Part shown: piece by piece, positions 3,478-52,600 of the stretch | Position numbering within the stretch: the first letter of the stretch is position 1 | Layout: each line of letters begins with the position of its first letter | Origin: Thermoplasmata archaeon | GTDB lineage: Archaea; Thermoplasmatota; Thermoplasmata; Lutacidiplasmatales; UBA184 | DNA length: 64,000 nucleotides | Assembly: GCA_021821785.1 (NCBI GenBank) | Contig: JAKACD010000003.1 | Coordinates: 8,462 to 72,461 of the forward strand | Reading direction: 5' to 3' | Notes under the pieces: generated by a model | Told to the model about the DNA's origin: nothing | Databases searched by the model: none | The model's input: the letters and a program-made list of their open reading frames with translations, nothing else | Translations under genes and position numbers: made by a program

Positions 3478-4779
3478 TTAAGGATTCGAGCCGCGCCGCA
3501 CGCACGCCACCACGTCCGCGGCCGAGGCGCCGGGCCGGGCGAGCGCCCGGGCGACCCGGACCAGGAGCGCCCCGGCATCGTCGTACGGCGCCGAGAACCC
3601 CACCGTACGGCGTCGGAACGCGAAGCGACGCCACCCGCCGGACCGCCGGGCCGCTCGCTCGACCACCGCCGCGACCCGCCGGCCCCGACCGAAGTCGGCG
3701 AAGTCCTCTCGCACATCGCGCGGGAGACCGGCGGCCCGGGCGAGCGCGAGCAGGCGCTCGAGCTTCTCGGGCCGGTGCCGGCGGATCCGGTGGCCTTCGC
3801 CGAGGATCCCATTGAAGTAGAGGAACGGGCCGCCGACCTCGATCGCCTCGAGCAGCGAGCGGCTCCCGGTCACGATCCGCACGTCGGCCCGGGCGAACCG
3901 GGTGCGCCAGCGCCGCCACGGCTCGGGGTCGGTCGAGATCTTCCATCCCGTCGGGGCGGCAAACGTGCGCCACGGCCGGTTCGTGCGGACGTGGACCGAC
4001 GCCCGGTCGCCGACCGCGCGATGCAGCCCGTCCCGCACGGCCGGGGCGATCCGTTCGGCGCTCGCCGGGCTGGCGTACCACACCCACGCCGGGCGTGCGG
4101 ACCGAGCCTCGTCCCGCGCGGCCGCCCCGCGGCGCTCCGGCCAGAGGGGACCGACCTGGACGGCGGCGGGGAACTCCCGGGCGAACGCGCGGTCGGGCCG
4201 GAACGTGGCGTAGAGGTGGAGGACGTTCGCCCGGTCGAACGCCCGGAACCGCTCGAACGCCGATCGGAACGCCCGCACCTCCTCCGCGGCCGCGGCCCGC
4301 GCGACCCCGTCGGCGAGCGACCGCGAGCGGACCCCACCCTCCCGCAGCCGCTCCCGGGTCTCGGCGAGGCTCGTGAGCGTGCGGGCGAACTCCTCGAGGC
4401 TCACGTGGATCGTGCGGTCCGGCCCGTAGCGGGCCTCGATCTCGGCCGCCTCCTCCGCCCACGGGCCGGGACGCCCGAGCGGGCCGGGTCGGGTGGGGGC
4501 GGCGCTCACTCCGAACGACGGGCTGATCGTGAGGGCAACGGGCCGGGTCGGACGGAGGCGACGTACGCGCCGCAACGGCGGCCAGTCCCACGGTCCTTCG
4601 ACCGCCCGAGGCATCGGTCGACCGGCCGCCCGATAGAGGTGGATGGGCAGACCGACTCTCGCGAGGCGACGGCCGGCGGCGAGGACCTCCTCGATATCGC
4701 CGAGTCCGCCCCCGACGACGGCCGGCAGGAGATAGACATCGACCGGACCGGGCCGGGTCCGAGGCTCAGCGGACGCCAC
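3478..4779 (-). CDS. hypothetical protein, GT-B glycosyltransferase-like (family unresolved)
   Basis: 433 aa. The N-terminal beta-strand plus Gly-rich loop (VDVYLLPAVVGGGLGDIEEVLAAGRRLARVGLPIHLY) and the C-terminal ADVRIVTGSRSLLEAIEVGGPFLYF...H...KLERLL resemble GT-B nucleotide-sugar-binding halves. The start overlaps the upstream GNAT stop by 14 nt. Confidence 0.45.
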   Translation of the reverse strand: MASAEPRTRPGPVDVYLLPAVVGGGLGDIEEVLAAGRRLARVGLPIHLYRAAGRPMPRAVEGPWDWPPLRRVRRLRPTRPVALTISPSFGVSAAPTRPGPLGRPGPWAEEAAEIEARYGPDRTIHVSLEEFARTLTSLAETRERLREGGVRSRSLADGVARAAAAEEVRAFRSAFERFRAFDRANVLHLYATFRPDRAFAREFPAAVQVGPLWPERRGAAARDEARSARPAWVWYASPASAERIAPAVRDGLHRAVGDRASVHVRTNRPWRTFAAPTGWKISTDPEPWRRWRTRFARADVRIVTGSRSLLEAIEVGGPFLYFNGILGEGHRIRRHRPEKLERLLALARAAGLPRDVREDFADFGRGRRVAAVVERAARRSGGWRRFAFRRRTVGFSAPYDDAGALLVRVARALARPGASAADVVACVRRGSNP

Positions 4780-5707
4780 GGTAGAGCGTGAGGACGGGGA
4801 TGGCCTCCCGGAATCCGGCCCCCACGAGCGCGGCCCGGCCTCGTTCGTTCTCTCGCGGGACCATCGCGAGGACCCGAGGGCTCCCCCGGTCCGCGCACCA
4901 TCGGGTCGCGGTCGCGACCAGACCGAGCGCCCGCTCCGGATCGAGCGACTCGGCCAGGATCGGGCTCGAGAGGTGCCCTGCCTCGGTCGCCCGGGAGACC
5001 GCGGCGGCGACCCAGGCGACCGCCCCGGCGCCGTCGTCGATCACCCAGGCGGCGCGTTCGCTCGCGAGGAGGTCCCCTTCCCACGGCGAGCCGGTGAGCT
5101 CCCGCTCGGTGGCGGGCAACACCTCCTCGACGACCGCGGGGCGGACGCGGCGGGCGGTCGCGACCAGCGCACGGGCGTCCTCGGAACGGAACGGGCGAAG
5201 TCCCGGTACGGCGGCCGCGGGCGGCGCGCCGCCGTCGGGCCGTTCCTGGACAAAGTAGGCGGTCTCGCGCAGGGTCCGGAAGCCGAGCCGGTCGTAGAGC
5301 GCGCGCGCGGGCGTGTTCGCGGCGAGGACGTCCAGCACGAGGTACGGTCGTCGCCGGGCGCGGCTCGCGGCCCGGGCCCGCTCGAGGAGCGACTGCGCGA
5401 GGCCTCGACGGCGCCAGGCGGGGTCGACGACGACCATGCTGACATAGCCGGCCCGGCGCGAGAACGTCAGGAGGGTCGTGGCGACGAGACGGCCCGCCTC
5501 CTCGACCACGAAGAAGCGGAAGATCGGTCGGCCGACCAGGCGCAACAGACCGAGGACGAACCGGACGTCCCACCGGAAGATCCGGCGGACGACCTCGAAG
5601 AACCCCTCGGGACGGGTGCCGAGGAGCGCCTCCTCCTCGGGAAAGTACTGTTTCATGAAGCGCAGAAGGTCCGCGGCGTCCCGCCCTTGGAGTTCGCGGA
5701 CCGTCAC
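4766..5707 (-). CDS. GNAT family N-acetyltransferase (two GNAT-like halves)
   Basis: GTG start at 5707 forms a GTGA overlap with the HEAT-protein stop (5704-5706). The acetyl-CoA motif is VVVDPAWRRRGLAQSLLERA...NTPARALYDRLGF. Confidence 0.7.
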   Translation of the reverse strand: MTVRELQGRDAADLLRFMKQYFPEEEALLGTRPEGFFEVVRRIFRWDVRFVLGLLRLVGRPIFRFFVVEEAGRLVATTLLTFSRRAGYVSMVVVDPAWRRRGLAQSLLERARAASRARRRPYLVLDVLAANTPARALYDRLGFRTLRETAYFVQERPDGGAPPAAAVPGLRPFRSEDARALVATARRVRPAVVEEVLPATERELTGSPWEGDLLASERAAWVIDDGAGAVAWVAAAVSRATEAGHLSSPILAESLDPERALGLVATATRWCADRGSPRVLAMVPRENERGRAALVGAGFREAIPVLTLYRGVR

Positions 5708-7209
5708 GGCTCGTCGTCCTCGCCCGAGCTCGGGATCGCCGACTCGAAGAGGAGGCGGACGGTCGGCGGGGCCCGGTCGAGCGCGAGCTCGGGGAGCGGC
5801 AGCCGGGCCGCCCGGTCGAGCTCCTCCTCCGTGAGGCGTTCTCGCGCGTCCACGAGCGCCCGGTGGATGAGCGGGTCGGGGAGGCCGTGCGCAAGGCGGC
5901 CGAGCGCCTGGACGACCGCATCGAAGACGCGGCTCTCCGCGTCGGAGCGGAGGGGGTTCTCCCCCTGCGCGACCCGGAGGTGGTTCGGCACATCGATGGG
6001 GCGCGTCTCGTACAGCAGTCGCACGAGCGCCTCGCGCGCTCCGTCGTCCGCGAGCACGCCGAGCGCCCAGACCGCCGCGAGCCGCACCTCGGCGGCGGGA
6101 TCGAGGAGCTCCTCCCGGATCCGGGGGGCGGCCTCGGCGAGTCCCAGACGGCCGAGGGCGTAGATCGCGCCGCGGCGGGGCCAGGGGTGCTCGTCGCGCA
6201 GCAGGCCGAGCAGCGCGGAGAGGTGGGTCGGTCCCCCGACCGCGCCGAGCGCCACCGCCGCGGCGCCCCGGACCGACCACGCCGGGTCGGTGAGATGGTC
6301 GGCCGCGACCGGCGCGCCCTCCGGAGCGCCCATCTCGCCGAGCGCGTGGATCGCGCAGACGCGGACCCAGTGCGCCGGATGCTCGGCCGCTCGGAGCAGC
6401 TCGGGCAGGGCCTCCCGCGCCCCGATGCGGCCGAGCGCGATCAGCACCGCCGGCTTCTCCCACGTCTCGGGTCGATCGAGAAGGGCGAGGAGCGGGCCCA
6501 CGCTCGTGGGGTCGCGCCGTCGGCCCAGCACGACCGCGGCCGCCACCCGGACCCGACGCGACGGATCGGCGAGGTGGGCGCGGAGGATCGGGAGATCGAC
6601 CGGATCGTCCGAGCGGCCGAGCGCGAGCAGCGCCTCCCGGCGGACCCGGTCGTGCGGGTCCTCGAGGAGCGGGCGAAGGCAGGCACGGGCCTCGTCGGTC
6701 CCCAGCCGACCGAGCGCGGTCGCGACCGCGCGGCGTACCTCGGGAGCGGGATCGTTCCCGTGCGCGGAGAGCACCGGCAGCGAGCGCGCATCCTCGAGAA
6801 GGGCGAGCGCGTAGCCGGCTCGGGTCCGCACCGCCGCTTCGGGATCGGAGAGCGCGTGCTCGAGGGCCTCCCGGCTCTCCGCGTGGCCGATCGCCCCGAG
6901 CGCATCGACCGCCGCCCCCCGCACCGCCGGGTCCGGGTCGGTGAGCGCCGTGACGAGCGTCGAGCGGCCCCGCGGGTCCTTCAGGATCCCGAGCGCGACC
7001 GCAGCCGTCTCCCGGATCCCCGGGACCGGGTCGCTGAGCGCGACCAGGAGTGGACCCAGGTCCGCGACGTACCCCCGCGCCACGCTGGCCCGGATCGCCG
7101 CCGCCCGCTCCGACGGGGTCCGGGGCGGGGTCGTCTTCTTCCGACCGCCCGCGCGTCGGCGCGCGGCCGTCCCGGGCCTCTTCGAGCGATGGCGGGCTCG
7201 GTCGGGCAC
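5704..7209 (-). CDS. HEAT-repeat (PBS-lyase HEAT-like) protein
   Basis: 501 aa with more than 10 tandem repeats of the type L..aL.DpdpaVR..Aa.ALG.iG. The N-terminus is basic. GTG start. Confidence 0.8.
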   Translation of the reverse strand: MPDRARHRSKRPGTAARRRAGGRKKTTPPRTPSERAAAIRASVARGYVADLGPLLVALSDPVPGIRETAAVALGILKDPRGRSTLVTALTDPDPAVRGAAVDALGAIGHAESREALEHALSDPEAAVRTRAGYALALLEDARSLPVLSAHGNDPAPEVRRAVATALGRLGTDEARACLRPLLEDPHDRVRREALLALGRSDDPVDLPILRAHLADPSRRVRVAAAVVLGRRRDPTSVGPLLALLDRPETWEKPAVLIALGRIGAREALPELLRAAEHPAHWVRVCAIHALGEMGAPEGAPVAADHLTDPAWSVRGAAAVALGAVGGPTHLSALLGLLRDEHPWPRRGAIYALGRLGLAEAAPRIREELLDPAAEVRLAAVWALGVLADDGAREALVRLLYETRPIDVPNHLRVAQGENPLRSDAESRVFDAVVQALGRLAHGLPDPLIHRALVDARERLTEEELDRAARLPLPELALDRAPPTVRLLFESAIPSSGEDDEP

Positions 7210-7221
7210 GCCGAGCGGACC

Positions 7222-9567
7222 CTATGCGGGGCTAAAAGGTCCGCTCGGCCCCGGGCCGTTCGCGAGCTCCGATTGCGTCGCACGCTCGGGCGAGCGGTAC
7301 GGCGCGCGCGTCGGGGCCAGGGGCCCGCCCCACCGCTCGAGCAACGTCGCCCGGTCGATCCCGAGGGGGGCGAGGAGGGTCTCGGCGTCCCGTGCGAGCA
7401 GGTCGAGGTACGCCCCGACGTCGTAGCGCTCGTCGCCCGTGAGCTGCTCCGCGACCGCGACCCGACGGCGGAACGACCGACTCTCCCGATCGAGGAGGAC
7501 GAACCGGACGACCTCGCCCGCCTCCCGCCGGGCCCCGGCCTCCGCGAGCTGGCGCAGGGCGGCGACCGAGTCGGTGAACGTACCGAACGCCTCGGGCGCC
7601 TGGCCGACCCGGTGGCTCACGAGGAGCTCCTCGACCGGCCAGTCGCCCGCCGCGACGCGGGCGGCGATGAGGTCGGCCCGGGAGAGGGCCCGGGGGAGCA
7701 GCGCCCGGACGCCGGCCGCGTCGCGCGCGGTACGAAAGAGGGTCAGGACCTCGCTCTCGAACCGACGGACGAGCCCCGGCGTGTCGTGACGACGGCCGCC
7801 GATCCCGCGGAGTTTGAACTCCCCGTGCTCGTAGAGGCCGTAGTACCGGTTCGGCACGCCGAGCCCGTGCGTCACCGCCGGCAGGAACACGATCCAGCGG
7901 TACCGCCCCTCGTAGCCGAGGGGGAGGTCGAACCGCTCGCTCATGCGGGCCGCGAACCCCTCGGGGTCCGCGGGCCGCCCGAGGTCGACGGGCCGCAGCC
8001 AGAGCGAGTCAACGATCCCGTGCAGCACCGCGTAGCCGGCCCGCTCGGCCTCCGGAAGGAGGGCGGCGATGAGCTCCCGGGCGTAGGCGTTGATCGCCTC
8101 GTGGCATTCGATCCGGCCGAAGCGGGCGTTGCGGTAGCCCTGGTAGCCGAACGCCGTCACGAGGATCCACTTGAGCATCTTGACTCGGCGGCGGAGACGG
8201 CTCGCCTCCTCCGCGGGGAGGCCGGGGCGCTTCAGGGCCGCCTTGTAGGCGAGGCGTCGGGCGAGGAGCGGGGCGAGGGTGCGGGGGATGAGGCCGACCC
8301 GGCGGGTGCAGGAGCGGTAGCCGAGCCCCGGAGCCCGGATCGGGCTCTGCGGACAGCAGCGGCACTCGAGCGTCTCCGCGGAGAGGTTCTTGCGGACCAT
8401 GATGTGCGGGTAGAGGCTCGCGAAATCGAACTCGTCGACGTGGTCGTGGACCCCGACCGGCGGGAGGAAGATCACCCCCCCGCGGTCGGCCGCGACCAGG
8501 CGGTCGGCCCGGCGGAACCCCTCGGGACGGTTCTTCTTCCACGGCACGTGCGCGCCGAGCGCGAGCGCGTGGGCCATCTCCATCGCCGTGAAGCAGGTCC
8601 CCGGCGACTGGCGGACGACGGTCGCGAGCGAGAGGCGGGAGAGCCGGGCCGCGTCGACCAGGCCGGCGATCTCGGCGTCGTCGTAGAGGAAGGAGTTCTC
8701 TCGGTCGATATGGAACCGACCGGGGATCGGGTACGATGCGGAACGATGCAGCACGCGACCGTACGACTCGAACGAGCGCGCGGGCCGGCTCGCCCGGAAG
8801 CCGACCCGCTCGCGGCCGAGGGAGAACTCGGACGGAGGCAGCCCGCACGCCGCTGCCCGCCGGTAGAGCCACGGGAGGTCGAAGGAATCTCCGCCCTGGG
8901 TGAGCAGGATGTCGGGATCGCTCCGCGCGAGCTCATCGACCAGCGCGCGCAAGAGGTCCGCCTCGGGCCCCTCGAGCGTCACCTCGCCGAGGCGGACCGA
9001 CCCGATACGGCCGTCCGGCGGCGGGAGCCGGCCCCGGCGCATCCCGGCGAGACGGACCTCGAGCCGGGCGAGGCGCAGCGGCGGGGGAAGGTACTCGATC
9101 GCCTCGGGAGGCTCGGTCGCGGTGAGCGCGGCCCCGGTCCCCACGACCGGGGCGAACGGGTAGAGCGCATGGCCGAGGTGGTAGAGCTGCGGGGGGAGGA
9201 GGTCGACGTCGTAGAGCGAGAACGTCTCGTACTGCCCGGCGGCGTCGACCTCCCGGGCGAGCGCCCGGCGCTCCGGGTTCCGCATCGGGGTGACCGTGAG
9301 GACCGGGCGGGGGCGCCGATCGTAGAGCGACGGGCGCCCCGTCCCCAGCGCGACCGCGGCGACGGTCGGTCGCCCGGCGAGCGAGCGGGCGAGGTCGACG
9401 AGCGCGGGGCGGGGTCCCGTGACCAGGAACGGGGGACGGTACTCGACGGCGGTGCGGCGGACCCGTCCGGTCCGTCGCGACTTCACCCAGAGGACGATCG
9501 AGCGGCCGTCCTCGCTCTCGGTGATGTCGAGAAGCCAGCCGTCGGGGGTCGACGTCGGTCCGCTCAC
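7222..9567 (-). CDS. polB: family B DNA polymerase, divergent (altered Exo I, motif B, motif C, KKRY)
   Basis: 781 aa. Motif A is DFASLYPH, Exo II is GGDSFDLPWLYRRA, and motif B reads KWILVTAFGYQGY. Motif C reads HGIVDS (8005-8022) instead of YxDTDS. Exo I reads LEV instead of DxE. The segment LRGIGGRRHDTP matches tRGle.vRRD. Confidence 0.85.
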   Translation of the reverse strand: MSGPTSTPDGWLLDITESEDGRSIVLWVKSRRTGRVRRTAVEYRPPFLVTGPRPALVDLARSLAGRPTVAAVALGTGRPSLYDRRPRPVLTVTPMRNPERRALAREVDAAGQYETFSLYDVDLLPPQLYHLGHALYPFAPVVGTGAALTATEPPEAIEYLPPPLRLARLEVRLAGMRRGRLPPPDGRIGSVRLGEVTLEGPEADLLRALVDELARSDPDILLTQGGDSFDLPWLYRRAAACGLPPSEFSLGRERVGFRASRPARSFESYGRVLHRSASYPIPGRFHIDRENSFLYDDAEIAGLVDAARLSRLSLATVVRQSPGTCFTAMEMAHALALGAHVPWKKNRPEGFRRADRLVAADRGGVIFLPPVGVHDHVDEFDFASLYPHIMVRKNLSAETLECRCCPQSPIRAPGLGYRSCTRRVGLIPRTLAPLLARRLAYKAALKRPGLPAEEASRLRRRVKMLKWILVTAFGYQGYRNARFGRIECHEAINAYARELIAALLPEAERAGYAVLHGIVDSLWLRPVDLGRPADPEGFAARMSERFDLPLGYEGRYRWIVFLPAVTHGLGVPNRYYGLYEHGEFKLRGIGGRRHDTPGLVRRFESEVLTLFRTARDAAGVRALLPRALSRADLIAARVAAGDWPVEELLVSHRVGQAPEAFGTFTDSVAALRQLAEAGARREAGEVVRFVLLDRESRSFRRRVAVAEQLTGDERYDVGAYLDLLARDAETLLAPLGIDRATLLERWGGPLAPTRAPYRSPERATQSELANGPGPSGPFSPA

Positions 9568-9571
9568 ACGG

Positions 9572-9826
9572 TCAGCGTCGGGGGGCCCGCTCCGGAGGCT
9601 CGGGGCGAATCCGCGCGGCCAGGTCGGTGAGGACCGAGAGAAGGATCGACTCGAGGAGATCGGGGCTACCGACGTACGTCGCCTGGGCGGCGTAGCGACG
9701 GGCTCCCGAACGGACGAGGTCGAACGCGGCCCGCTCCTCGGGCGTCGTCAGGAGCCGCGCGAACTCGTCCCAGCGTTTCATCCGCTCCTCGAGCGCCTGC
9801 CGGTAGGTCGGGGCGGTACGTCCCAC
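9572..9826 (-). CDS. small hypothetical protein (69-84 aa, helical)
   Basis: The ORF lies between the RadB-like gene and polB. An internal ATG at 9781 forms an ATGA overlap with the upstream stop (9778-9780). Only 4 nt separate its stop from the polB GTG start. No recognisable domain. Confidence 0.45.
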   Translation of the reverse strand: MGRTAPTYRQALEERMKRWDEFARLLTTPEERAAFDLVRSGARRYAAQATYVGSPDLLESILLSVLTDLAARIRPEPPERAPRR

Positions 9827-10662
9827 GCAATCACCTCCTCGGCGGAAACGCCGCCGAACTCCTCGAGGCCGCGCTGTCCGCTCGGCCGGGCCACGAAGGT
9901 GAGCCGGGCATCGTCCCGCAGGGCCCGCAGGCGCAGGCCGGACGGCCCGCGCTCGAACGTGACGACGTCGGCCCAGCGGGGGCCCTCCTCGGCGAGCCCG
10001 GGGAACGTCGCGATCCCACCCGGGCCGAGCGTCAGGAGCAACGGCACCCGGACCCGGTCGATGAGCGGGACGAGGGTGCGGGCGAGGTGACGGAGGAGCG
10101 CGAGCCGTTCCTCCGCGGGGACCTCGGGGTCGGCGAACAGCGCCGGAAGGTCATGGCCGACGAGCAACGTCGGCGGGTGACGCCGCGCCTCGGCCTCCCA
10201 GCCGTCGACGAGCGCGACCATCTGATAGACGGTGAACGCCCGCGCGAGCCGGATCCCCTCGAGCGTCCGGCGCGCATCGACCCCCAACGACCGGCCGAGC
10301 TCGCCGATGCGGTACGGATGGAACCGGTTCGCCCCTTCGAGAAGGGAGATCCGTCCCCGGACGACCGCGCTTCCCGCGTAGAGGAGCTCGAGGATCGGCT
10401 CGACGGCGGCCCGGGGACCCGTCCAGAGCGTCAGCTCCCCGGGCGCGAAGCGCCGGTCGAGCCAGGGAAACAGCGCCGGCGCGGCGGGCAGGAGCGGTCC
10501 GGCCGACCTCCGTCGGGGACGCGCCCGGGCCCGCCGGGGGAACGGGAGGCGCGGAAGCCGGGGGACCGCCGGGGGAACGCTCTCGGGCAGGAACGGCGCC
10601 CACGGTTCGGGTTCCGGCACCTCCATCGGGACCGCCGGGGCGACCGGGGAACCGTCGAACAT
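9778..10662 (-). CDS. RadB/RecA-fold protein with degenerate Walker A and B (predicted pseudo-ATPase)
   Basis: After a ~65-aa Pro/Arg-rich N-terminus, LDRRFAPGELTLWTGPRAAVEPILELL...ISLLEGANRFHPYRIGELGRSLGVDARRTLEGIRLARAF...TLLVGHDL follows the archaeal RadB layout (FAPG..t.vyGp.gsGKT...yvDtEg.FspeR...). GKT is replaced by VEP, and hhhhD by LLVGHD. Confidence 0.5.
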   Translation of the reverse strand: MFDGSPVAPAVPMEVPEPEPWAPFLPESVPPAVPRLPRLPFPRRARARPRRRSAGPLLPAAPALFPWLDRRFAPGELTLWTGPRAAVEPILELLYAGSAVVRGRISLLEGANRFHPYRIGELGRSLGVDARRTLEGIRLARAFTVYQMVALVDGWEAEARRHPPTLLVGHDLPALFADPEVPAEERLALLRHLARTLVPLIDRVRVPLLLTLGPGGIATFPGLAEEGPRWADVVTFERGPSGLRLRALRDDARLTFVARPSGQRGLEEFGGVSAEEVIAWDVPPRPTGRRSRSG

Positions 10663-10753
10663 GAACCGAACGCGCCTCCCGGGAATCTAGCGCCGGGAAC
10701 GCTCTAAAGCGGCGGCTCGGGAGACCTTGAAACGCAGCGAGAACGGAGCGTTT

Positions 10754-11542
10754 CTATCCGTCCCGGGAGAGCTCGGGGGCATCGAGCCGTCCGCTCCCGG
10801 GCGGGGGCGGGAGCCCGAGCTCCTCGGAGAGCGTGCGGCAGTTCACGGCCGCGTCCCCCCGGAAGTGGTTGTTGAAGAACCCGTAGATGGTCGCCACCTG
10901 CTCGGTCAGCGCGCGCACCCGGGGGACCCAGGCCAGGAGCTCGGGAAGGGAATAGAGATAGTCGTACCAGAGGGGGCTCCCGTGGCCGTGCCAGCGCACG
11001 TAGGCGAACGGGGCGGTCACCTCGAACGCGATGGGGAGGTGCGGACCGTCCACGATCACGTGCGCGAGGCCGAACTCCCGCAGGAGCTCGTAGGACTCCC
11101 GGACCAGCCAGGAGCGCTCCCGGAACTCGACCGCGACCGGGAGGTCCCGGGGGAGCGTCTCGTAGAACCGGCGGACGGTCGCCGCCTCGAACGGAAGGGA
11201 CGGAGGGAGCTGGAGGAGCGCGGCGGTGAACTTCCCCGCCTCTCGAATCGGCTTCAGGACCGCGAGGAAGCGGGCGAGCTCCTCCTCGGTGCCGACCAGG
11301 CGCAGGTCGTGCGTGATCGTCTGGGGGAACTTCGCCGCGAAGCGGAACCGGGCCGGCGTGCGGTGGACCCAGGAGGCGGCGACGGAGGGCGGCGGCAGGC
11401 GATAGAACGTGGAGTTGACCTCGACGATCGGGAAGAGCTTCGCATAGTAGGCCAACCGATCGCTGACCCCCCGCGGCGGGTAGACCCGACCGACCCATTC
11501 GGGGTAGTCCCAGCCGCTGGTCCCGAGCAGGATGTCGCCCAC
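10754..11542 (-). CDS. DUF72 (UPF0759/YecE-like) family protein
   Basis: 262 aa. The pattern LGTSGWDYPEWVGRVYP...YAKLFPIVEVNSTFYRLP...VAVEFRERSW...FFNNH is typical of DUF72. Confidence 0.85.
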   Translation of the reverse strand: MGDILLGTSGWDYPEWVGRVYPPRGVSDRLAYYAKLFPIVEVNSTFYRLPPPSVAASWVHRTPARFRFAAKFPQTITHDLRLVGTEEELARFLAVLKPIREAGKFTAALLQLPPSLPFEAATVRRFYETLPRDLPVAVEFRERSWLVRESYELLREFGLAHVIVDGPHLPIAFEVTAPFAYVRWHGHGSPLWYDYLYSLPELLAWVPRVRALTEQVATIYGFFNNHFRGDAAVNCRTLSEELGLPPPPGSGRLDAPELSRDG

Positions 11543-28368: not shown

Positions 28369-28703
28369 ACGGAATCTCTCCTGCCGCGCGCGCGCGACTC
28401 CGTGGACCCGCGCGCAACCGAACTTACCAAGACACGCGTTGAGCGCTTCGGACGACGCGGTCGACGCGAAATCCGCGCGCCGTCGAACCTAGCAACCTTA
28501 TACTCAATCGTGGTTGGGCGCACCCGGAGGGTTTTCACGGTGTCCCGAGCGACACCATCCGCGTCGTCGACCCACTCCGACCGGGGGGAAACGCCCCTGC
28601 CCCAAGGGTGTTTCACCGACCGGCCGCGGGTGGAATAGGCGCTCGCGTCGTGGTACGGTCGGCTCGACGGATTCTCCGCGAGCTCTCCAAGGAGTGAGCC
28701 CGA

Positions 28704-31493
28704 ATGGCCGTTGCCAAGAAGCGTGCGATGCCCGTCGCGGACGAGTCGGCTAGCCGACCCGCCCGGCTCGGGCGCGAACCGATTCCCGTCCCCCGCCTGG
28801 TTCCCCGCGGCAAGACCGCGTTCGACACGGTCGAGTGGCGGAGCCACGATGCCGTCATCAAGAACGCGGAGGGGAAAGTGATCTTCGAGCAGAAGGGGAT
28901 CCGCGCCCCCACCACCTGGTCGGAGACCAGCGTCAACATCGCGGCGTCGAAGTACTTCCGCATCATCCAGGGCCGACGCGAGAGCTCGATCGACGGGATG
29001 ATCCGCCGCGTCTGCCACTGGATGGCCCACCAGGGCCTCGCGCTCGGCTACCTCGACACGCCCGAGGAGGCGACCACCTTCGAGGAGAGCCTCTCGTACC
29101 TCATGGTCCAGCAGATGGCGGCGTTCAACAGCCCCGTCTGGTTCAACGTCGGGGTCCGAGAACCGCCGCAGTGCTCCGCCTGCTTCATCCAGTCGGTCGC
29201 GGACGACATGGACTCGATCCTCAACCTCGCGACCAGCGAGGGCCGCCTGTTCAAGGGCGGGAGCGGCACGGGAACCAACCTCTCCTCGCTGCGCGGCAGC
29301 CACGAGAAGCTCGCGGGCGGCGGGATCGCCTCGGGACCGGTGTCGTTCATGCGGGCGTTCGACGCGCTCGCCGGCGTGATCAAGTCCGGCGGCACGACCC
29401 GGCGCGCCGCGAAGATGGTGATCCTGAACATGGACCACCCGGACGTGGTCGATTTCATCGACTGCAAGGTCCGCGAGGAGGACAAGGCGCTCGCCCTCAT
29501 CCGCGAGGGCTACTCCGCGAACTTCGACGGCACCGATCCCGACAGCGCCTACGCCTCGATCGCCTACCAGAACGCGAACCACTCGGTCCGCATCCCCGAC
29601 GCCTTCATGGACGCGGTCGTGCGCGACGGCGAGTGGAAGACGTACAACCGGACCGACCACGCGGTCGCCGGCACGTTCCGCGCCCGAGAGCTCTGGCGCA
29701 AGCTCGCCTACGCGGCGTGGCGCTGCGGGGACCCGGGGGTCCAGTACGACGATATCACGAACGACTGGCACACCTCTCCCAACACCGCCCGCATCAACGC
29801 CTCCAACCCGTGCAGCGAGTATCTCTTCCTGGACGATTCGGCGTGCAACCTCGCGTCGATCAACCTGATGCGGTTCCTGGACGCGAAGGGCCAGCTCGAC
29901 GTCGAGTTCTTCCGCCAGGCGGTGCGCACGATGATCCTCGCGATGGAGATCATCGTCGATGCCTCGAGCTATCCCACCGCCACCATCGCCCAGAACTCGC
30001 ACGACTACCGGCCGCTCGGGCTCGGGTACGCGAACCTCGGGGCGCTGCTGATGCACTACGGCCTCGCCTACGACTCGGACGCCGGCCGCACGCTCGCCGG
30101 GGGCATCTCGGCGCTCCTCTCCGCCGAGGGCTACCACATGTCCTCGGAGATTGCGAAGCGGATGGGCCCGTTCGCGGGGTTCGAGAAGAACCGGGCGCCG
30201 ATGCTCCGGGTGATGGGCAAGCATGCTCGGGCCGCGGAACAGATCGCGCTCAACGACCCGCGCCTGAAGGCGCTCGTCCAGGCCTCGGTCGACCGCTGGC
30301 ACGACACCGTGAAGGCCGGGGAGCTCTGGGGATACCGCAACGCCCAGATCTCGGTCATCGCGCCCACCGGGACGATCGGACTGTTGATGGGCTGCGACAC
30401 GCTCGGTCTCGAGCCCGAGCTCTCGCTCGTCAAGGTGAAGAACCTGGTCGGCGGCGGCGTCCTGCGGATGCTGAACCGGACGGTGCCGGACGGCCTCACC
30501 GCGCTCGGCTACTCGCCCGCGGAGATCCGGGCGATCACCGAGCACGTGGAGAAGACCGGCACGATCGAGGGCGCCCCCGGGCTCGACCCGGAGGACCTCA
30601 CGGTCTTCGACTGCGCGCTCGCGCCCGCGGGCGGAACCCGGACGATCCCGCCCATGGGCCACCTCAAAATGCTCGGCGCCGTCCAGCCGTTCCTGTCCGG
30701 CGGGGCGTCGAAGACGATCAACCTCCCCAACGAAGCGACCGTCGAGGACGTCGAGAAGATCTACCTCGAGGCCTGGCGGCTCGGGATCAAGTCGGTCGCG
30801 CTCTACCGCGACGGCTGCAAGGCCTCCCAGCCGTTCGAGACGGGAAAGGGGCGGGCCGGCGCGCCGGTCGGACCCCGCGGCCCCGCGCGAGAGCGCCTTC
30901 CCGACGAGCGGAAGGCGATCACGCACCACTTCTCGGTCGGCGGCCACGACGGCTACGTGACCGTCGGGCTCTATCCGGACGGCCGACCGGGCGAGGTGTT
31001 CTTCCGCGTCACGAAGGAAGGGTCGACCGTCAACGGTCTCATGGACTCGCTCGGGATCTCGATGTCGATGGCGCTCCAGCACGGGGTGCCCCTCAAGGAC
31101 CTCGTGCGGAAGCTCGCCCACCTCCGGTTCGAGCCGGCGGGCGCCACGAACAACCCGAAGATCCGCTTCGCGAAGTCAATCCCGGACTACGTCGCCCGCT
31201 GGCTCGCGATCGAGTTCCTGACCGAGGACGACCGACGCGCAATCGGGCTCGAGGGCCCGGCCGAGGGGAACGGCCACGGCGCGGCGCCGGCGGCCGCGCC
31301 GAAGCCGAGCCCCGCCGCGAGCCAGACCGTGAAGTTCGAGACCCGTCCGCTCGACGCGTTCGCGCCCGAGACGGCCGCCGGCGGAGCGACGAGCGAGGAC
31401 GCCCCCTCCTGCGCGGTGTGCGGCGGGATCATGATGCGCTCGGGCACGTGCTACGCGTGCACCGTCTGCGGCTCCACGAGCGGCTGCTCCTAA
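28704..31493 (+). CDS. nrdJ: adenosylcobalamin-dependent ribonucleotide reductase (class II)
   Basis: 929 aa. Typical class II RNR sequence (NPCSEY, SACNLASINL, GLGYANLG) with a C-terminal Cys cluster CAVCGG...CYACTVCGSTSGCS. The SD-like AAGGAGTG lies 8 nt upstream. Confidence 0.95.
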   Translation: MAVAKKRAMPVADESASRPARLGREPIPVPRLVPRGKTAFDTVEWRSHDAVIKNAEGKVIFEQKGIRAPTTWSETSVNIAASKYFRIIQGRRESSIDGMIRRVCHWMAHQGLALGYLDTPEEATTFEESLSYLMVQQMAAFNSPVWFNVGVREPPQCSACFIQSVADDMDSILNLATSEGRLFKGGSGTGTNLSSLRGSHEKLAGGGIASGPVSFMRAFDALAGVIKSGGTTRRAAKMVILNMDHPDVVDFIDCKVREEDKALALIREGYSANFDGTDPDSAYASIAYQNANHSVRIPDAFMDAVVRDGEWKTYNRTDHAVAGTFRARELWRKLAYAAWRCGDPGVQYDDITNDWHTSPNTARINASNPCSEYLFLDDSACNLASINLMRFLDAKGQLDVEFFRQAVRTMILAMEIIVDASSYPTATIAQNSHDYRPLGLGYANLGALLMHYGLAYDSDAGRTLAGGISALLSAEGYHMSSEIAKRMGPFAGFEKNRAPMLRVMGKHARAAEQIALNDPRLKALVQASVDRWHDTVKAGELWGYRNAQISVIAPTGTIGLLMGCDTLGLEPELSLVKVKNLVGGGVLRMLNRTVPDGLTALGYSPAEIRAITEHVEKTGTIEGAPGLDPEDLTVFDCALAPAGGTRTIPPMGHLKMLGAVQPFLSGGASKTINLPNEATVEDVEKIYLEAWRLGIKSVALYRDGCKASQPFETGKGRAGAPVGPRGPARERLPDERKAITHHFSVGGHDGYVTVGLYPDGRPGEVFFRVTKEGSTVNGLMDSLGISMSMALQHGVPLKDLVRKLAHLRFEPAGATNNPKIRFAKSIPDYVARWLAIEFLTEDDRRAIGLEGPAEGNGHGAAPAAAPKPSPAASQTVKFETRPLDAFAPETAAGGATSEDAPSCAVCGGIMMRSGTCYACTVCGSTSGCS

Positions 31494-49621: not shown

Positions 49622-52600
49622 TCACGGCATCTCCGAAGCGGCCGGGGCCCCGCCCCGGGGGCGGAATCGGTCGAGGGTCGTCTGCGCGGTCGAGCCCGGG
49701 AAGAGCGTCGCCACCGAGTCGGAGAGGATCTGAATCCGCTGGCGCACATACGGGGTGATTCCCTCGACCTCGCTCAGGCGCTGGGAGAGCGGGAGGTACT
49801 TGCGCACGGACGCTTCGTAGACGCTCGACAGGAGCTCGCCGTCGCACCGGGCGCCCCCTTTCCCGGTGGCCGTGCAGCGACCCGAGAGCGGCGGCCGGCG
49901 GTAGGCCTCGCCGCAGTCCTTGCATCGGAAGCTCTGGGTCGCGTAGCTCTTGAGGTTCCCCATCACGTCGGGCAGGAAGTGCGCGTTGAGCACGAGCGTG
50001 ACCGCCTCGGCCACATCGACCGCGCGGATCTGGGTCGCGAGCAGCACCGACCGCTCGACCATGTCGGTCATCGAGCGCCCGTCGCGGTAGGCGGAGCGGA
50101 CCGGTCCGCCCGCGATCCGCGAGGTGTCGTGGGTGAAGCCGTACTCCGACAGCGCCCGGCCCGAATCGAGCCGGTGCCCGACCAGGTCGAGGAGGGGCTC
50201 GACCTCCTTCGCCGAACGGCCCTCGGCGGCGGCCCGGTAGAGGGCGAGCGCGTGATGGCTCGAGACATCCACGTTGTGTGCCTCCTTGTCGACCTCGGTC
50301 GCGACGAGCCGGGTCGTCAGGACCAGCGGCTTGTCCATGAGCGCGCCCCGACTTTCGGGCAGGAACGACCGGGAGAAATTGAGCAGCGCGTCCAGGAGGA
50401 GCGTCACCGAGTCCTCATCGCCATCGCAGTTCCGCCGCTTCGCGGCGTGGAAGACCGGGGAGGCAAAGCACGCCTCGGCGTCCGTGAACCCGATCAGGCG
50501 GCCGGCGACCCCGCCCGACGTGTGCGGAGCGAGCGCGACCACGATCGCCCCGACGAGCCGATCGGGCCGATCGGCCGAGTAGAACGGGTCGAGGTTGTAG
50601 AAACGCACGAGCTCATCGTCGACGAACTGGGAGAGCCGGGTGAGGTACTCCCCGCACGAACGGGAGACGACCAGGTCCTGGGGGGCGAGCTCGACCAGCT
50701 GCTCGGGGTCGGTGAGCTCGGCCCCCGTCCAATCCCGCTCGTAGCCCAGCCGACGCAGGGTCGCGACGTCCGTCCCGATCTCCGCCGGCCGGAAGTGGGT
50801 GAGCGGAAGGTCCGTGAGGTCGAACCGGGCCGTGCCGTCCTGATAGACCGAGATCCCGTGGACCGCGCGCAGGATCCCCTTCTCGATCGGCTCCGGGACC
50901 TTCCCCGGGGAGGTGAGGCCCTTCACGCCCTTCACGACCGGGACCTTGGCGAGGTGCAGGCGCGAGACCGCGTCGCTCCAGATCCGCGCGATCGGTAGCG
51001 ACTGGCGGCCCACGTCGCCGGTCGGGTTCGTGTGCTGCCCGCAGGGACAGCGCATCCAGACGGTGGTCCGCCCGCAGGCAGGACAGCTGCGGATCCCGAG
51101 GTCGACGTCGGCTCCCTCCCGCATCGTGCGGCGGGCGGCCTCGGGCACCGAGCGGGTCGAACCCCCGGCACTGCCGACGGGAAAGAGCCCGTGAACGTTC
51201 GGTTGCATGCTCCGCTGGTACGCCTTCTCCGGCCGCCCGACCCGTCCCCCGACGCGTGACGGTCCGCGAGGGCGGAGGACGACCCCGGCAAGGCGGTGGA
51301 CGTACCGCAACGGGTCGACGTCGACCGGCTCGAGGGACGCGCGCCGCACGAGACGGTCTCCCTCGGGGTCGAGGCCGAGGCCACCGACGAGCGCCGCGCC
51401 CGGGTCGGGTTCCCCGCGCAGCCGGTTCGGCTCGACCGGGTAGAACAGGAAGCCGAGCCGCTCGAGGGTCTCCCGCCACGCCGGATCGTTGGGCAGTTCG
51501 ACCGAGCCCTCGACCCAGCGGCCCGTGCGCTCGACGAACTCGGCGAGCGCCCGGATCTCGGCGGAGGTAAGGTCGTGCCAGAAGAGCAGCCAGCGAGGAT
51601 GCAGCGGCACCCGATGGGTCTGCGAGAGGGCGACCGCCTCGGCGTACGTGCCCACGGCGAGCCCCACCGCGGGGTCGACCCCGGCCGCCTCGAGCTCGGC
51701 AGCATGCCAGTCGAGGGAGTAGGCGCCCGGGACGAGCGCGCGGTTGTTCTCGAGGAACTCCCCGAACGAGACGAGGATCTCCCCGAGGTCGACGATCCGA
51801 CGCACGCGGCGGCGGAGCGACTCGGCCCGGGGGGTCTCGTGGACCGCGGTGACGGTCCCGTCGTCGAGCTCGACGATCGGCCCTTCGACAGTGTCGCACA
51901 CGCCCATGGCCGTGGCCTTTCCGGGGTACTCGAGCTTCACCTGGGTCCCGATCGCGACGAAGTGCTGGAGGATCACCATCGTCGCGGGGTTCACCGCGCA
52001 CGCCGCGAGCCCGGTCGTGCGGGCCCGGCCGTAGACGAGCCGGAACCCACCGGGGTGGTTCGGATGGGCGAGGACCGGGCGGCCGCCGACCGAGTCCTGA
52101 AGGTACTTCGGGGTCCGGGCCTCCTCTTCGTCGGTCTTGCGGTGACCGAGCTCGGCGAGGAACTCCCATCCGTCGAGGCCGAGCTTGTCGACGATCTTCC
52201 GGATCTTCGCCGCCTTCTGGCAGAGCCCCTCGGCGATGACCAGGCAGGCACCGCCCCGGATCCCGTTCGTCGGGACGCGCGGCAGGTTGCGGAACGCGCT
52301 CACCTCGGCGTCGCCCTCGGTCGACTCGCCCGAGATCGCGACCGGGACGTGCCGAACGACGAGGTCGATCTCCTCGGGCGTCGGGACGTACTGCAGGTGC
52401 TGGTGGTACTTGTACAGAGGAATCTCCTCCTTGTACCGCTCGATCTCGTCCGGCTCGGGGTGGAACGGCTCGAGGCCGAGGTCGCGGCGGACGATGTCGG
52501 CGAGCAGCACGCTGAGCGCCTGCGCGGTCCCGCCGGCGGCTCGAATCGGTCCCGCGTAGTAGAGCTCGATGTATCCTCGACGGTCCCGGCCCTCCCGCAC

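What the first reader, a model, noticed from the sequence alone, without database searches (positions are those of the whole stretch)
7222..9567. Family-B polymerase with motif C HGIVDS and Exo I LEV
Motif A (DFASLYPH, aa 381-388) and Exo II (FDLPWL) are intact. Motif C reads VLHGIVDSLWL where archaeal PolBs have YxDTDS, so the first Asp is Ile and only the second Asp is kept (DNA 8005-8022: CAC GGG ATC GTT GAC TCG). Motif B reads KWILVTAFGYQGY instead of KxxxNSxYG. KKRY reads PNRY. The Exo I DxE position reads LEV (~9055-9066), and the Exo III region is shortened. In RB69 and phi29 polymerases the second Asp of DTD is the metal ligand, so polymerase activity cannot be excluded, but proofreading looks compromised. 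Inactivated PolB paralogues have been described in Euryarchaeota (from memory), and this gene may belong to such a clade or a related one.
Basis: partly seen in the sequence, partly recalled or inferred. Interest (0 to 1): 0.6.

Follow-up and report, generated by a model that had tools for sequence, protein, structure and literature searches.

The report
Known PolB2 translesion polymerase gene
This gene is an ordinary copy of PolB2, an already described archaeal DNA polymerase that has lost proofreading and sits in its usual operon with two partner proteins, so its odd active-site motifs are the family's normal signature and not a new finding.

Summary
The ORF 7222-9567 (-) is real and encodes a 781-aa family-B polymerase in an uncultured Thermoplasmata archaeon. 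Exo I has no DxE.

These features are the family signature of archaeal PolB2 (Dpo2-like). All 116 diverse relatives keep the motif A Asp and the distal motif C Asp, and 111 of 116 have His in place of Tyr ("HxxxD"). The invariant D(K/R) loop motif is present.

The gene lies in the canonical iRadA-PPB2-PolB2 operon:
- iRadA has a RadA fold with Walker A and B lost.
- PPB2 starts with MGRT.
- A DUF72 gene lies upstream, as published.

The genome also has a canonical PolB3, PolD and a Y-family polymerase.

By homology to Sulfolobus Dpo2, the protein is most likely an active, proofreading-deficient translesion "extender" polymerase working as a PolB2-iRadA-PPB2 complex. It is not a dead enzyme.

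Verdict: observation confirmed, interpretation supported, low novelty.

One side observation: a conserved palindrome is shared by the operon's promoter and the ribonucleotide reductase promoter.

The parts
7222..9567 (-). PolB2 (Dpo2-like family-B DNA polymerase), 781 aa
   Evidence: Pfam PF00136 8.4e-17 and PF03104 1.4e-06. NCBIfam NF004418 2.6e-119 over the full length, but below the cut-off. AlphaFold model pLDDT 82.3; Foldseek match to P. abyssi PolB E 8e-35, TM 0.67, over the whole length. Placed in the PolB2 clade.
8005..8022 (-). Motif C, H516-G-I-V-D520-S ('HxxxD' of PolB2); distal metal-ligand Asp kept
   Evidence: D520 is present in 116/116 and H516 in 111/116 family representatives.
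8404..8427 (-). Motif A, DFASLYPH (D381 metal ligand)
   Evidence: D381 is present in 116/116.
8134..8172 (-). Motif B, KWILVTAFGYQGY (K466 kept); matches the PolB2 consensus KWxLV[TV][CS]FGYxGY
7843..7854 (-). KKRY-equivalent, P572-N-R-Y575 (family consensus [LPA]-N-R-Y)
9052..9060 (-). Exo I-equivalent positions E170-V171-R172 (no DxE)
   Evidence: hhalign; strand 166-173 in the model; positions 170 and 172 vary in the clade and the family.
8878..8895 (-). Exo II-equivalent G225-G-D-S-F-D230 (Asn lost, Asp kept)
8482..8517 (-). Loop with an FxxA-like motif (F351-R-R-A354) and the invariant D361-R362 (the D(K/R) motif). The AlphaFold multimer models of Timinskas 2025 (PMC11791011), not reproduced here, place this region against iRadA and the PPB2 N-terminal arm.
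   Evidence: D361 is 56/56 and 116/116; position 362 is R or K in 53/56. An 8-residue insertion relative to PolB3. pLDDT <50 at 344-365 in the monomer model.
9572..9826 (-). PPB2 (arCOG07300), 84 aa, N-terminus MGRTAPTYR
   Evidence: An MGRT-initiated small ORF lies directly upstream of PolB2 in 77/80 related loci. It aligns with the H. marismortui pNG600 PPB2 (MGRTNPTYR); M1 G2 R3 T4 P6 T7 Y8 are invariant. The motif is described in PMC11791011. It ends 4 nt before the PolB2 GTG.
9778..10662 (-). iRadA (inactivated RadA paralogue), 294 aa; overlaps PPB2 by 49 nt
   Evidence: Profile against PDB hits RadA at 4e-10. AlphaFold pLDDT 82; Foldseek hits Rad51/RadA/DMC1 at E 6e-12. hhalign against the genome's own RadA aligns the Walker B Asp with the invariant H170. 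No GK[TS] and no Lys anywhere in the protein. The first ~60 residues are disordered, so the RadA N-terminal domain is absent.
9856..9876 (-). PIP-like motif Q263-R-G-L-E-E-F269 near the iRadA C-terminus (candidate PCNA-binding box)
   Evidence: Q263 and G265 are invariant, and [LIM]266 and F/Y269 are conserved, in 30 sequences. A short helix at 266-269 appears in the model. Timinskas 2025 reports such motifs mostly in iRadA.
10729..10754 (.). Palindrome GAAAC-N16-GTTTC upstream of the operon promoter (candidate regulator site)
   Evidence: Conserved in 45/46 related loci while the flanks vary. One of only two exact sites in the 1.69-Mb genome.
10701..10711 (-). TATA-like box CGCTTTAGAGC, about 41 nt upstream of the iRadA ATG; GGAGG lies at 10676-10680
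   Evidence: Conserved in the alignment of upstream regions.
10754..11542 (-). DUF72 gene upstream on the same strand (TIM barrel related to UV damage endonuclease, per PMC11791011)
   Evidence: Pfam PF01904 1.9e-63. Found upstream of the operon in 58/80 related loci. Enrichment near polB2 is reported in PMC11791011.
5704..7209 (-). HEAT-repeat protein gene 12 nt downstream; a lineage-specific neighbour, probably with its own promoter
   Evidence: Pfam HEAT_2 9.9e-86. Found in 66/80 related loci, mostly directly downstream of PolB2; not found in the 16 more distant genome loci except a same-genus one, some of which were cut short by contig ends. TTTTAG at 7230-7235 lies about 22 nt before GTG 7209.

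Best explanation
The gene encodes a PolB2-group family-B DNA polymerase (Dpo2-like). Shown here: it has the complete PolB fold. It keeps the two catalytic metal-ligand aspartates (D381 in motif A, D520 in motif C), the dNTP-binding Lys of motif B (K466) and R574-Y575 of the KKRY motif. It lacks a functional DEDDy exonuclease site. It is encoded in the family's defining operon with iRadA (a RadA fold without an ATPase site) and PPB2 (a small protein with the MGRT N-terminus). Inferred from the characterised Sulfolobus enzyme and from published complex models: the protein is an active, distributive, proofreading-deficient polymerase that extends mismatched or lesion-opposed primer ends during translesion synthesis. 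It probably works as a PolB2-iRadA-(PPB2)3 'mutasome'. In that model the FxxA-containing loop of PolB2 docks on iRadA in the manner of RadA oligomerisation, the PPB2 N-terminal arm contacts the D361-R362 motif, and a PIP-like box (QRGLEEF) in iRadA tethers the complex to PCNA. The genome's canonical PolB3 and PolD would do replication, and its Y-family polymerase could act as the inserter. Expression is probably controlled from a dedicated promoter that carries a conserved palindrome.
For: Family identity:
- Motif registers agree between phmmer and hhalign.
- Across 116 representatives at 50% identity, D381 is 116/116, D520 is 116/116, H516 is 111/116 and K466 is 114/116. D361 is invariant.
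- In the tree, 56 HxxxD proteins, including the window protein and the named H. marismortui pNG600 PolB2, split from 18 PolB3 with SH-aLRT 100.
- The H. marismortui protein scores 1431 bits on NF004418, above the cut-off. Its locus has iRadA, an MGRT-PPB2, PolB2 (VVHGIVDSIWV) and orc1/cdc6.

Operon:
- PPB2 is present in 77/80 and iRadA in 76/80 related loci, and also in more distant Thermoplasmatota.
- iRadA matches RadA by profile and by fold.

Genome context:
- PolB3 with FDIEN, DFKSMYPS, KVLMNSFYG, YSDTDS and KKRY.
- PolD DP2.
- A Y-family polymerase.
- RadA and RadB.

Activity of the family: S. islandicus and S. solfataricus Dpo2 show robust polymerase activity, no 3'-5' exonuclease, and act as mismatch/lesion extenders (PMC8764526). 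Heteropentamer models and clamp motifs are described in PMC11791011.
Against: - No biochemical or expression data exist for this protein or its clade. Activity is extrapolated from Sulfolobus enzymes that are much shorter and only distantly related.
- No Sulfolobus Dpo2 sequence could be placed in my tree. The named anchor is haloarchaeal.
- The protein scores below the curated cut-offs of both PolB2-type NCBIfam models (399.5 against 692, and 353 against 516), so it is a separate subfamily.
- The complex was not modelled here. The monomer model simply leaves the FxxA/DR loop disordered.
- The iRadA PIP-like box lacks the second aromatic residue and is not at the extreme C-terminus.
- This clade keeps three of the four acidic exonuclease positions as acidic residues (E170, D230, D297), so residual nuclease activity is not formally excluded.
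Confidence: 0.8

Rival explanations
1. It is a truly inactivated polymerase that serves only as a structural or regulatory subunit, for example of a replication or origin-related complex. This was the original proposal for the family in 2008-2014.
For: Loss of the motif C Tyr and first Asp, of the motif B N/S, of the KK of KKRY and of the Exo I DxE. Mutating the first Asp strongly reduces activity in Pol alpha and in viral PolBs (discussed in PMC8764526).
Against: Dpo2 enzymes with the same HxxxD motif are as active as the replicase in nucleotide incorporation (PMC8764526). The two metal-ligand Asp residues and the motif B Lys are conserved across 116 diverse family members (Asp 116/116, Lys 114/116). 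That is hard to explain without catalysis.
Confidence: 0.08
2. It is an active polymerase whose main role is not lesion bypass. It could work in recombination-associated or origin-independent DNA synthesis together with the RadA-like partner.
For: The partner is a RadA paralogue. orc1/cdc6 genes neighbour many euryarchaeal PolB2 operons, including H. marismortui. Makarova 2014 speculated on replication initiation or regulation.
Against: iRadA has no ATPase site and no N-terminal DNA-binding domain. Genetic data in S. islandicus tie Dpo2 to damage-induced mutagenesis (cited in PMC8764526 and PMC11791011). DUF72, which is related to UV damage endonuclease, lies next to the operon here. No orc1/cdc6 gene lies beside this operon.
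Confidence: 0.08
3. This clade keeps a weak or altered 3'-5' nuclease activity, because it retains more of the exonuclease domain than Sulfolobus Dpo2.
For: The full-size Exo domain is modelled with high confidence. E170 is frequent (22/33), and D230 and D297 are invariant in the clade (33/33).
Against: The Exo I Glu position is Arg here and is variable (R/T/H/E) in the clade. E170 is not conserved. The Exo II Asn and the Exo III Tyr are lost. Dpo2 shows no exonuclease activity (PMC8764526).
Confidence: 0.04

Closest known systems
Sulfolobus (Saccharolobus) islandicus/solfataricus Dpo2, the characterised PolB2, and its predicted PolB2-iRadA-PPB2 mutasome (Feng 2022, PMC8764526; Timinskas 2025, PMC11791011)
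   Same: The HxxxD motif C with Ile at the first-Asp position (Sis 401-IID-403; here I518-V-D520). The invariant D(K/R) loop motif. Degenerate Exo motifs. An operon with iRadA and an MGRT-PPB2. DUF72 in the neighbourhood.
   Different: This protein is 781 aa, whereas PMC8764526 calls the Sulfolobus enzymes the smallest PolB2 known. It keeps a structurally complete Exo domain with D230 and D297. It comes from a high-GC (~72%) Thermoplasmata MAG. No direct sequence comparison with Dpo2 was possible with the tools. Its activity is untested.
Haloarchaeal PolB2 (NCBIfam NF004418, 'type B DNA-directed DNA polymerase'), e.g. Haloarcula marismortui pNG600 WP_011222486.1
   Same: Identical HGIVDS motif C. 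KWILVxxFGYQG motif B. DRGG loop. 33% identity over 93% of the length. The same gene order, iRadA-PPB2-...-PolB2.
   Different: The window protein scores 399.5 bits, below the 692-bit cut-off of NF004418. The haloarchaeal locus is on a plasmid, has an extra small ORF and has an orc1/cdc6 neighbour. This locus is chromosomal, with DUF72 and HEAT-repeat neighbours.
Canonical archaeal PolB3 (Pfu/Tgo/KOD/P. abyssi PolB; the genome's own 820-aa PolB3)
   Same: The same overall fold across all domains (Foldseek TM 0.6-0.7). Motif A and the distal motif C Asp.
   Different: PolB3 has DxE, NxxxFD, YxxxD, KxxxNSxYG, YxDTD and KKRY. PolB2 lacks or alters all of these and adds the FxxA/DR loop and a CxCC..C cluster.
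Eukaryotic Pol zeta and the E. coli Pol V mutasome (functional analogues)
   Same: Exonuclease-deficient translesion polymerases that work with accessory subunits. Pol V uses RecA, and PolB2 uses a RecA/RadA-fold partner (PMC11791011). Pol zeta has an extender role (PMC8764526).
   Different: They are not orthologous. Pol V belongs to the Y family. The Pol zeta accessory subunits are unrelated to iRadA and PPB2.

Membership tests
PolB2 group of archaeal family-B polymerases | Motif C YxDTD changed to HxxxD (Tyr to His, first Asp lost, distal Asp invariant) | tested here: met
   H516-G-I-V-D520. Family counts are H 111/116 and D 116/116. The definition is in PMC8764526 and PMC2527604.
PolB2 group of archaeal family-B polymerases | Invariant D(K/R) motif in a flexible loop before motif A | tested here: met
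   D361-R362. D is 116/116 and 56/56, and R or K is 53/56. The loop has pLDDT <50.
PolB2 group of archaeal family-B polymerases | Exonuclease motifs deleted or radically altered | tested here: met
   Exo I D-I-E aligns with E-V-R. The Exo II Asn is Gly. The Exo III Tyr is deleted. D230 and D297 are retained.
PolB2 group of archaeal family-B polymerases | Falls in the PolB2 clade, separate from PolB3 and PolB1 | tested here: met
   In the IQ-TREE quick tree, 56 HxxxD proteins (including the window protein and H. marismortui PolB2) split from 18 PolB3 with SH-aLRT 100. Caveat: no PolB1, Sulfolobus Dpo2 or bacterial PolB2 could be included.
PolB2 group of archaeal family-B polymerases | Encoded next to iRadA and PPB2 (arCOG07300) | tested here: met
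   The gene order is iRadA 9778-10662, PPB2 9572-9826, PolB2 7222-9567. It is conserved in 76-77 of 80 related loci.
PolB2 group of archaeal family-B polymerases | Polymerase active, 3'-5' exonuclease absent, mismatch/lesion extension | not testable with these tools
   Known only for Sulfolobus Dpo2 (PMC8764526).
PolB2 group of archaeal family-B polymerases | DNA-damage-inducible expression | not tested
   No RNA data were examined. Only a conserved palindrome plus TATA box upstream of the operon was found.
NCBIfam NF004418 / NF004416 (type B DNA-directed DNA polymerase) | Score above the curated cut-off | tested here: not met
   399.5 bits against 692, and 353 bits against 516. These are the best-matching models but they do not cover this subfamily. 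H. marismortui PolB2 scores 1431 bits.
PPB2 (arCOG07300) | A protein of about 90 aa (helical per PMC4104785) with a conserved N-terminal MGRT arm and Arg at positions 3 and 9 | tested here: met
   MGRTAPTYR has R3 and R9, and the protein is 84 aa. It aligns with haloarchaeal PPB2. Helicity was not modelled.
iRadA | RadA/Rad51 ATPase-core fold with Walker A/B residues lost and without the N-terminal domain | tested here: met
   The Walker B Asp position is H170. There is no GK[TS]. Residues 1-60 are disordered.
Canonical replicative PolB (PolB3) | Intact DxE, NxxxFD, YxxxD, KxxxNSxYG, YxDTD and KKRY | tested here: not met
   The genome has a separate PolB3 that meets all of these.

The most novel reading that the evidence does not exclude
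In this soil Thermoplasmata family, the PolB2 mutasome operon and the B12-dependent ribonucleotide reductase gene share a conserved palindromic operator. It reads GAAAC-N16/17-GTTTC and lies about 20 nt upstream of the TATA box. This would define a small DNA-damage or replication-stress regulon, controlled by an unidentified regulator. That regulator might be an Orc1/Cdc6-type protein, like Sulfolobus Orc1-2, which binds ANTTTC. The lineage-specific HEAT-repeat gene just downstream of PolB2 could be an added component.
Probability: 0.3. Interest if true: 0.45.

Novelty: new member of a known kind. Interest (0 to 1): 0.15.

Why it matters
This matters mainly for annotation. NCBI names these Thermoplasmata proteins only 'DNA polymerase domain-containing protein' or 'hypothetical protein', and the two partner genes match no Pfam or NCBIfam model. 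The three genes can be labelled PolB2, PPB2 and iRadA.

PolB2 homologues are present in 84 of 201 sampled Thermoplasmatota genomes, so damage-tolerance synthesis by this complex is probably common in these soil archaea.

The clade is a large PolB2 with a complete but de-catalysed Exo domain. It could be useful for structural work on how HxxxD polymerases catalyse synthesis.

The shared promoter palindrome with ribonucleotide reductase is a testable lead to DNA-damage regulation outside Sulfolobales.

Tried and rejected
1. Named anchors. The listing of cluster members on 10 diverse relatives gave only MAG names such as Thermoplasmatota and Helarchaeota. The control-genome read-outs for NF004418 and NF004416 did not say which genome passed. 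A tblastn search of plasmids then gave named haloarchaeal PolB2 loci.
2. A profile-versus-PDB alignment gave yet another, low-confidence register for this region, which I did not adopt.
3. A PIP box at the PolB2 C-terminus. Only a conserved RSPE..Q..L without aromatic residues is present, which is not convincing. The recurrent '...GTF*' endings are better explained by a TTTTAG promoter box for the next gene that overlaps the stop codon.
4. The HEAT-repeat protein as an operon member. It is downstream in 66/80 close loci, but it has its own TATA-like box and was not found in the more distant PolB2 loci fetched, so I treat it as a neighbour.
5. The promoter palindrome as an RNA or DNA hairpin. 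The inner arms are not complementary above chance in the PolB2-operon copies, so a protein-binding site is more likely.
6. Other genomic copies of the palindrome showed no recurrent gene association beyond the PolB2 operon and the ribonucleotide reductase gene.
7. A mobile-element polymerase (casposon or pPolB) was rejected. The chromosomal synteny is conserved, and no Cas1 or terminal-protein context is present.
Full report
**What is there**

The window is high-GC DNA, 66-77% GC in 2-kb windows. It lies on contig C56 of a 1.69-Mb, 91%-complete genome. Close relatives of the gene all come from uncultured Thermoplasmata MAGs.

ORF 7222..9567 on the minus strand is intact and encodes 781 aa from a GTG start. 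Pfam finds DNA_pol_B (8.4e-17) and the PolB exonuclease domain (1.4e-06). In NCBIfam the two best models are the roughly 700-aa 'type B DNA-directed DNA polymerase' families. NF004418 gives 399.5 bits over the full length and NF004416 gives 353 bits. Both scores are below the curated cut-offs. The replicative PolB models score only 65-115 bits.

**Check of the observation**

Two independent alignments give identical registers in the polymerase domain. One is phmmer against Pyrococcus abyssi PolB. The other is hhalign of a 56-sequence family profile against a profile of 18 Thermoplasmatota PolB3 proteins (probability 100, E 1.6e-85). The registers are:
- Motif A: DFASLYPH opposite DFKSMYPS, with D381 kept.
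- Motif B: KWILVTAFGYQGY opposite KVLMNSFYG, with K466 kept and N and S lost.
- Motif C: LHGIVDS opposite YSDTDS, with Y to H516, first Asp to I518, and second Asp kept as D520.
- KKRY: PNRY opposite KKRY.

No canonical DTD or DxE exists elsewhere in the protein.

In the exonuclease domain, hhalign places the PolB3 Exo I D-I-E opposite E170-V171-R172. The AlphaFold model has the matching first strand at 166-173. Positions 170 and 172 vary even among close relatives. Exo II keeps the Asp (D230) but has Gly for the Asn. In Exo III the Tyr is deleted and the Asp is kept (D297).

**These substitutions are a family signature**

An exhaustive HMMER search found 635 clusters (at 50% identity) with E<=1e-30. 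In 116 full-length representatives:
- The motif A Asp is 116/116.
- The distal motif C Asp is 116/116.
- The His replacing the motif C Tyr is 111/116.
- The first-Asp position is Ile or Leu in 105/116.
- The motif B consensus is KWxLV[TV][CS]FGYxGY.
- The KKRY equivalent is [LPA]-N-R-Y.

This is the 'HxxxD' PolC motif that Feng et al. give as the hallmark of PolB2 (PMC8764526). It also matches the pattern Rogozin et al. described: at least two replacements in YGDTD, with the distal Asp conserved and no clear Exo I counterpart (PMC2527604).

The invariant D(K/R) motif of PolB2 is present as D361-R362. It lies in an 8-residue insertion relative to PolB3, and the monomer model leaves this stretch disordered (pLDDT <50 at 344-365). 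Just before it is F351-R-R-A354 (family consensus F-K-[ST]-A). This is an FxxA-type motif. It fits the published model in which this loop binds iRadA the way RadA/Rad51 subunits bind each other (PMC11791011).

**Named anchor and tree**

A tblastn search of plasmids found haloarchaeal homologues annotated 'type B DNA-directed DNA polymerase'. The Haloarcula marismortui pNG600 copy has VVHGIVDSIWV, KWILVACFGYQGF and DADRGG. It scores 1431 bits on NF004418. It is flanked by a 312-aa RadA-like ORF, a small ORF that begins MGRTNPTYRDAL, and orc1/cdc6.

In a maximum-likelihood tree, the 56 HxxxD proteins, including the window protein and the Haloarcula protein, are separated from 18 PolB3 proteins by a branch with SH-aLRT 100. 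Sulfolobus Dpo2 itself could not be fetched, so its placement with these sequences rests on the shared motifs and operon.

**The operon**

Directly upstream on the same strand lie two ORFs with no Pfam or NCBIfam hit.

The first is ORF 9572..9826, 84 aa, which begins MGRTAPTYR. The 'MGRT' arm with Arg3 and Arg9 is the conserved N-terminus of PPB2 (arCOG07300) (PMC11791011). The same ORF precedes PolB2 in 77 of 80 related loci and aligns with the Haloarcula PPB2.

The second is ORF 9778..10662, 294 aa. The evidence that it is iRadA is:
- A profile of 30 orthologues hits P. furiosus RadA at 4e-10.
- The AlphaFold model (pLDDT 82) matches Rad51, RadA and DMC1 cores at E about 1e-11.
- The Walker B Asp aligns with an invariant His.
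- There is no GK[TS], and in fact no lysine at all.
- The first ~60 residues are disordered, so the N-terminal RadA domain is absent.

Near its C-terminus is a conserved Q263-x-G-[LIM]-E-x-F box. It resembles the PCNA-binding motifs that Timinskas et al. found mainly in iRadA.

A DUF72 gene (Pfam 1.9e-63) lies upstream in the window and in 58 of 80 related loci. DUF72 is one of the neighbours reported as enriched near polB2 (PMC11791011). The iRadA-PPB2-PolB2 order also holds in more distant Thermoplasmatota. PolB2 homologues occur in 84 of 201 sampled genomes of the phylum.

**Genome context**

The same genome encodes:
- A canonical 820-aa PolB3 with FDIEN, DFKSMYPS, KVLMNSFYG, YSDTDS and KKRY.
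- The PolD large subunit, inside this window.
- A Y-family polymerase.
- RadA and RadB.

PolB2 is therefore an extra, specialised polymerase.

**Mechanism**

Shown here:
- The full PolB architecture (Foldseek TM 0.6-0.7 to Pab, 9°N and KOD PolB over about 825 columns).
- Retention of the catalytic carboxylates and the dNTP-binding Lys.
- Loss of the DEDDy site.
- Physical linkage to PPB2 and iRadA.

Inferred from homology to Sulfolobus Dpo2, which has robust incorporation, no exonuclease, distributive synthesis, efficient extension of mismatched and lesion-opposed termini, and is required for induced mutagenesis (PMC8764526, PMC11791011): the protein is most likely an active, proofreading-less translesion extender. 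It probably works as a PolB2-iRadA-(PPB2)3 complex, tethered to PCNA through iRadA, with the Y-family enzyme as a possible inserter.

The alternative of a purely structural, dead polymerase is now unlikely, though it is not excluded for this clade.

**Regulation (side finding)**

The region upstream of iRadA contains a perfect palindrome, GAAAC-N16-GTTTC (10729-10754). It lies 21 nt upstream of a TATA-like CGCTTTAGAGC, with a GGAGG before the ATG. Both elements are conserved in 45 of 46 related loci while the surrounding sequence varies.

The only other exact copy in the genome (28588-28614) lies at the same distance from a TATA-like AATAGG, upstream of the B12-dependent ribonucleotide reductase gene. 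That copy is conserved in 24 of 30 genomes of the family.

In eight genomes of the genus the pattern occurs 26 times, against 4 times for a reversed control. The inner arms of the PolB2-operon copies are not complementary above chance, so a protein-binding site is more likely than a hairpin.

The half-site resembles the Sulfolobus damage-response element ANTTTC, which Orc1-2 binds (PMC6061795). That resemblance is a lead, not a test.

**The HEAT-repeat gene**

A HEAT-repeat gene follows PolB2 after 12 nt and is found in 66 of 80 close loci, mostly directly downstream. A TTTTAG box inside the last PolB2 codons, about 22 nt before its GTG, suggests it has its own promoter. Among the 16 loci fetched from other genomes of the phylum, it was found only in a same-genus one, though some of those loci were cut short by contig ends. 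I treat it as a lineage-specific neighbour.

**Verdict**

The gene is a new member of the well-described PolB2 family in its textbook operon. Earlier notes of this scan reached the same conclusion for the adjacent iRadA gene and for equivalent operons in other genomes. Interest is low. The promoter palindrome shared with ribonucleotide reductase is the only element that may be unreported.

Noticed in passing
window 10729-10754 and 28588-28614: A perfect palindrome, GAAAC-N16/17-GTTTC, lies about 20 nt upstream of a TATA-like box in two promoters: the iRadA-PPB2-PolB2 operon and the B12-dependent ribonucleotide reductase gene (28704..31493 +). These are the only two exact copies in the 1.69-Mb genome. 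They are conserved in 45/46 and 24/30 related genomes. This is a candidate shared operator of a damage or replication-stress regulon.
   Followed up: partly
window 5704-7209 (-), and 7230-7235: A 501-aa HEAT-repeat (PBS-lyase type) gene starts 12 nt after the PolB2 stop. It follows PolB2 in 66/80 close loci and was not found in the more distant PolB2 loci fetched. A TTTTAG box overlapping the PolB2 stop region probably drives it as a near-leaderless transcript. This would also explain the recurrent '...GTF*' C-termini of PolB2 homologues.
   Followed up: partly
window 8308-8364 (-), PolB2 residues C402, C404, C405, C420: A CxCC...C cluster between motif A and the fingers is conserved in at least 90% of PolB2 family members and is absent from the genome's own PolB3. 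It may be a metal-binding or disulfide site. I did not find it discussed in the papers I read.
   Followed up: no
proteins P0124, P0125, P0149, P0154 and others: Several PolB2 relatives are about 1250-1300 aa, with the match split at about residue 473, inside motif B. Two aligned sequences carry an insert of about 190 residues there. These are probably inteins in PolB2 genes.
   Followed up: no
window about 52145-52960 (-): The PolD large subunit (DP2 N-terminal domain, E 1.3e-104) is encoded in the same window, about 43 kb from PolB2.
   Followed up: no
window 9778-9826: iRadA and PPB2 overlap by 49 nt in different frames. The true PPB2 start is the GTG at 9826, which gives the conserved MGRT.
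   Followed up: yes
window 4766-5700 (-): A GNAT acetyltransferase gene lies downstream of the HEAT gene. It was detectable in only 2 of 80 related loci within the fetched flanks.
   Followed up: no
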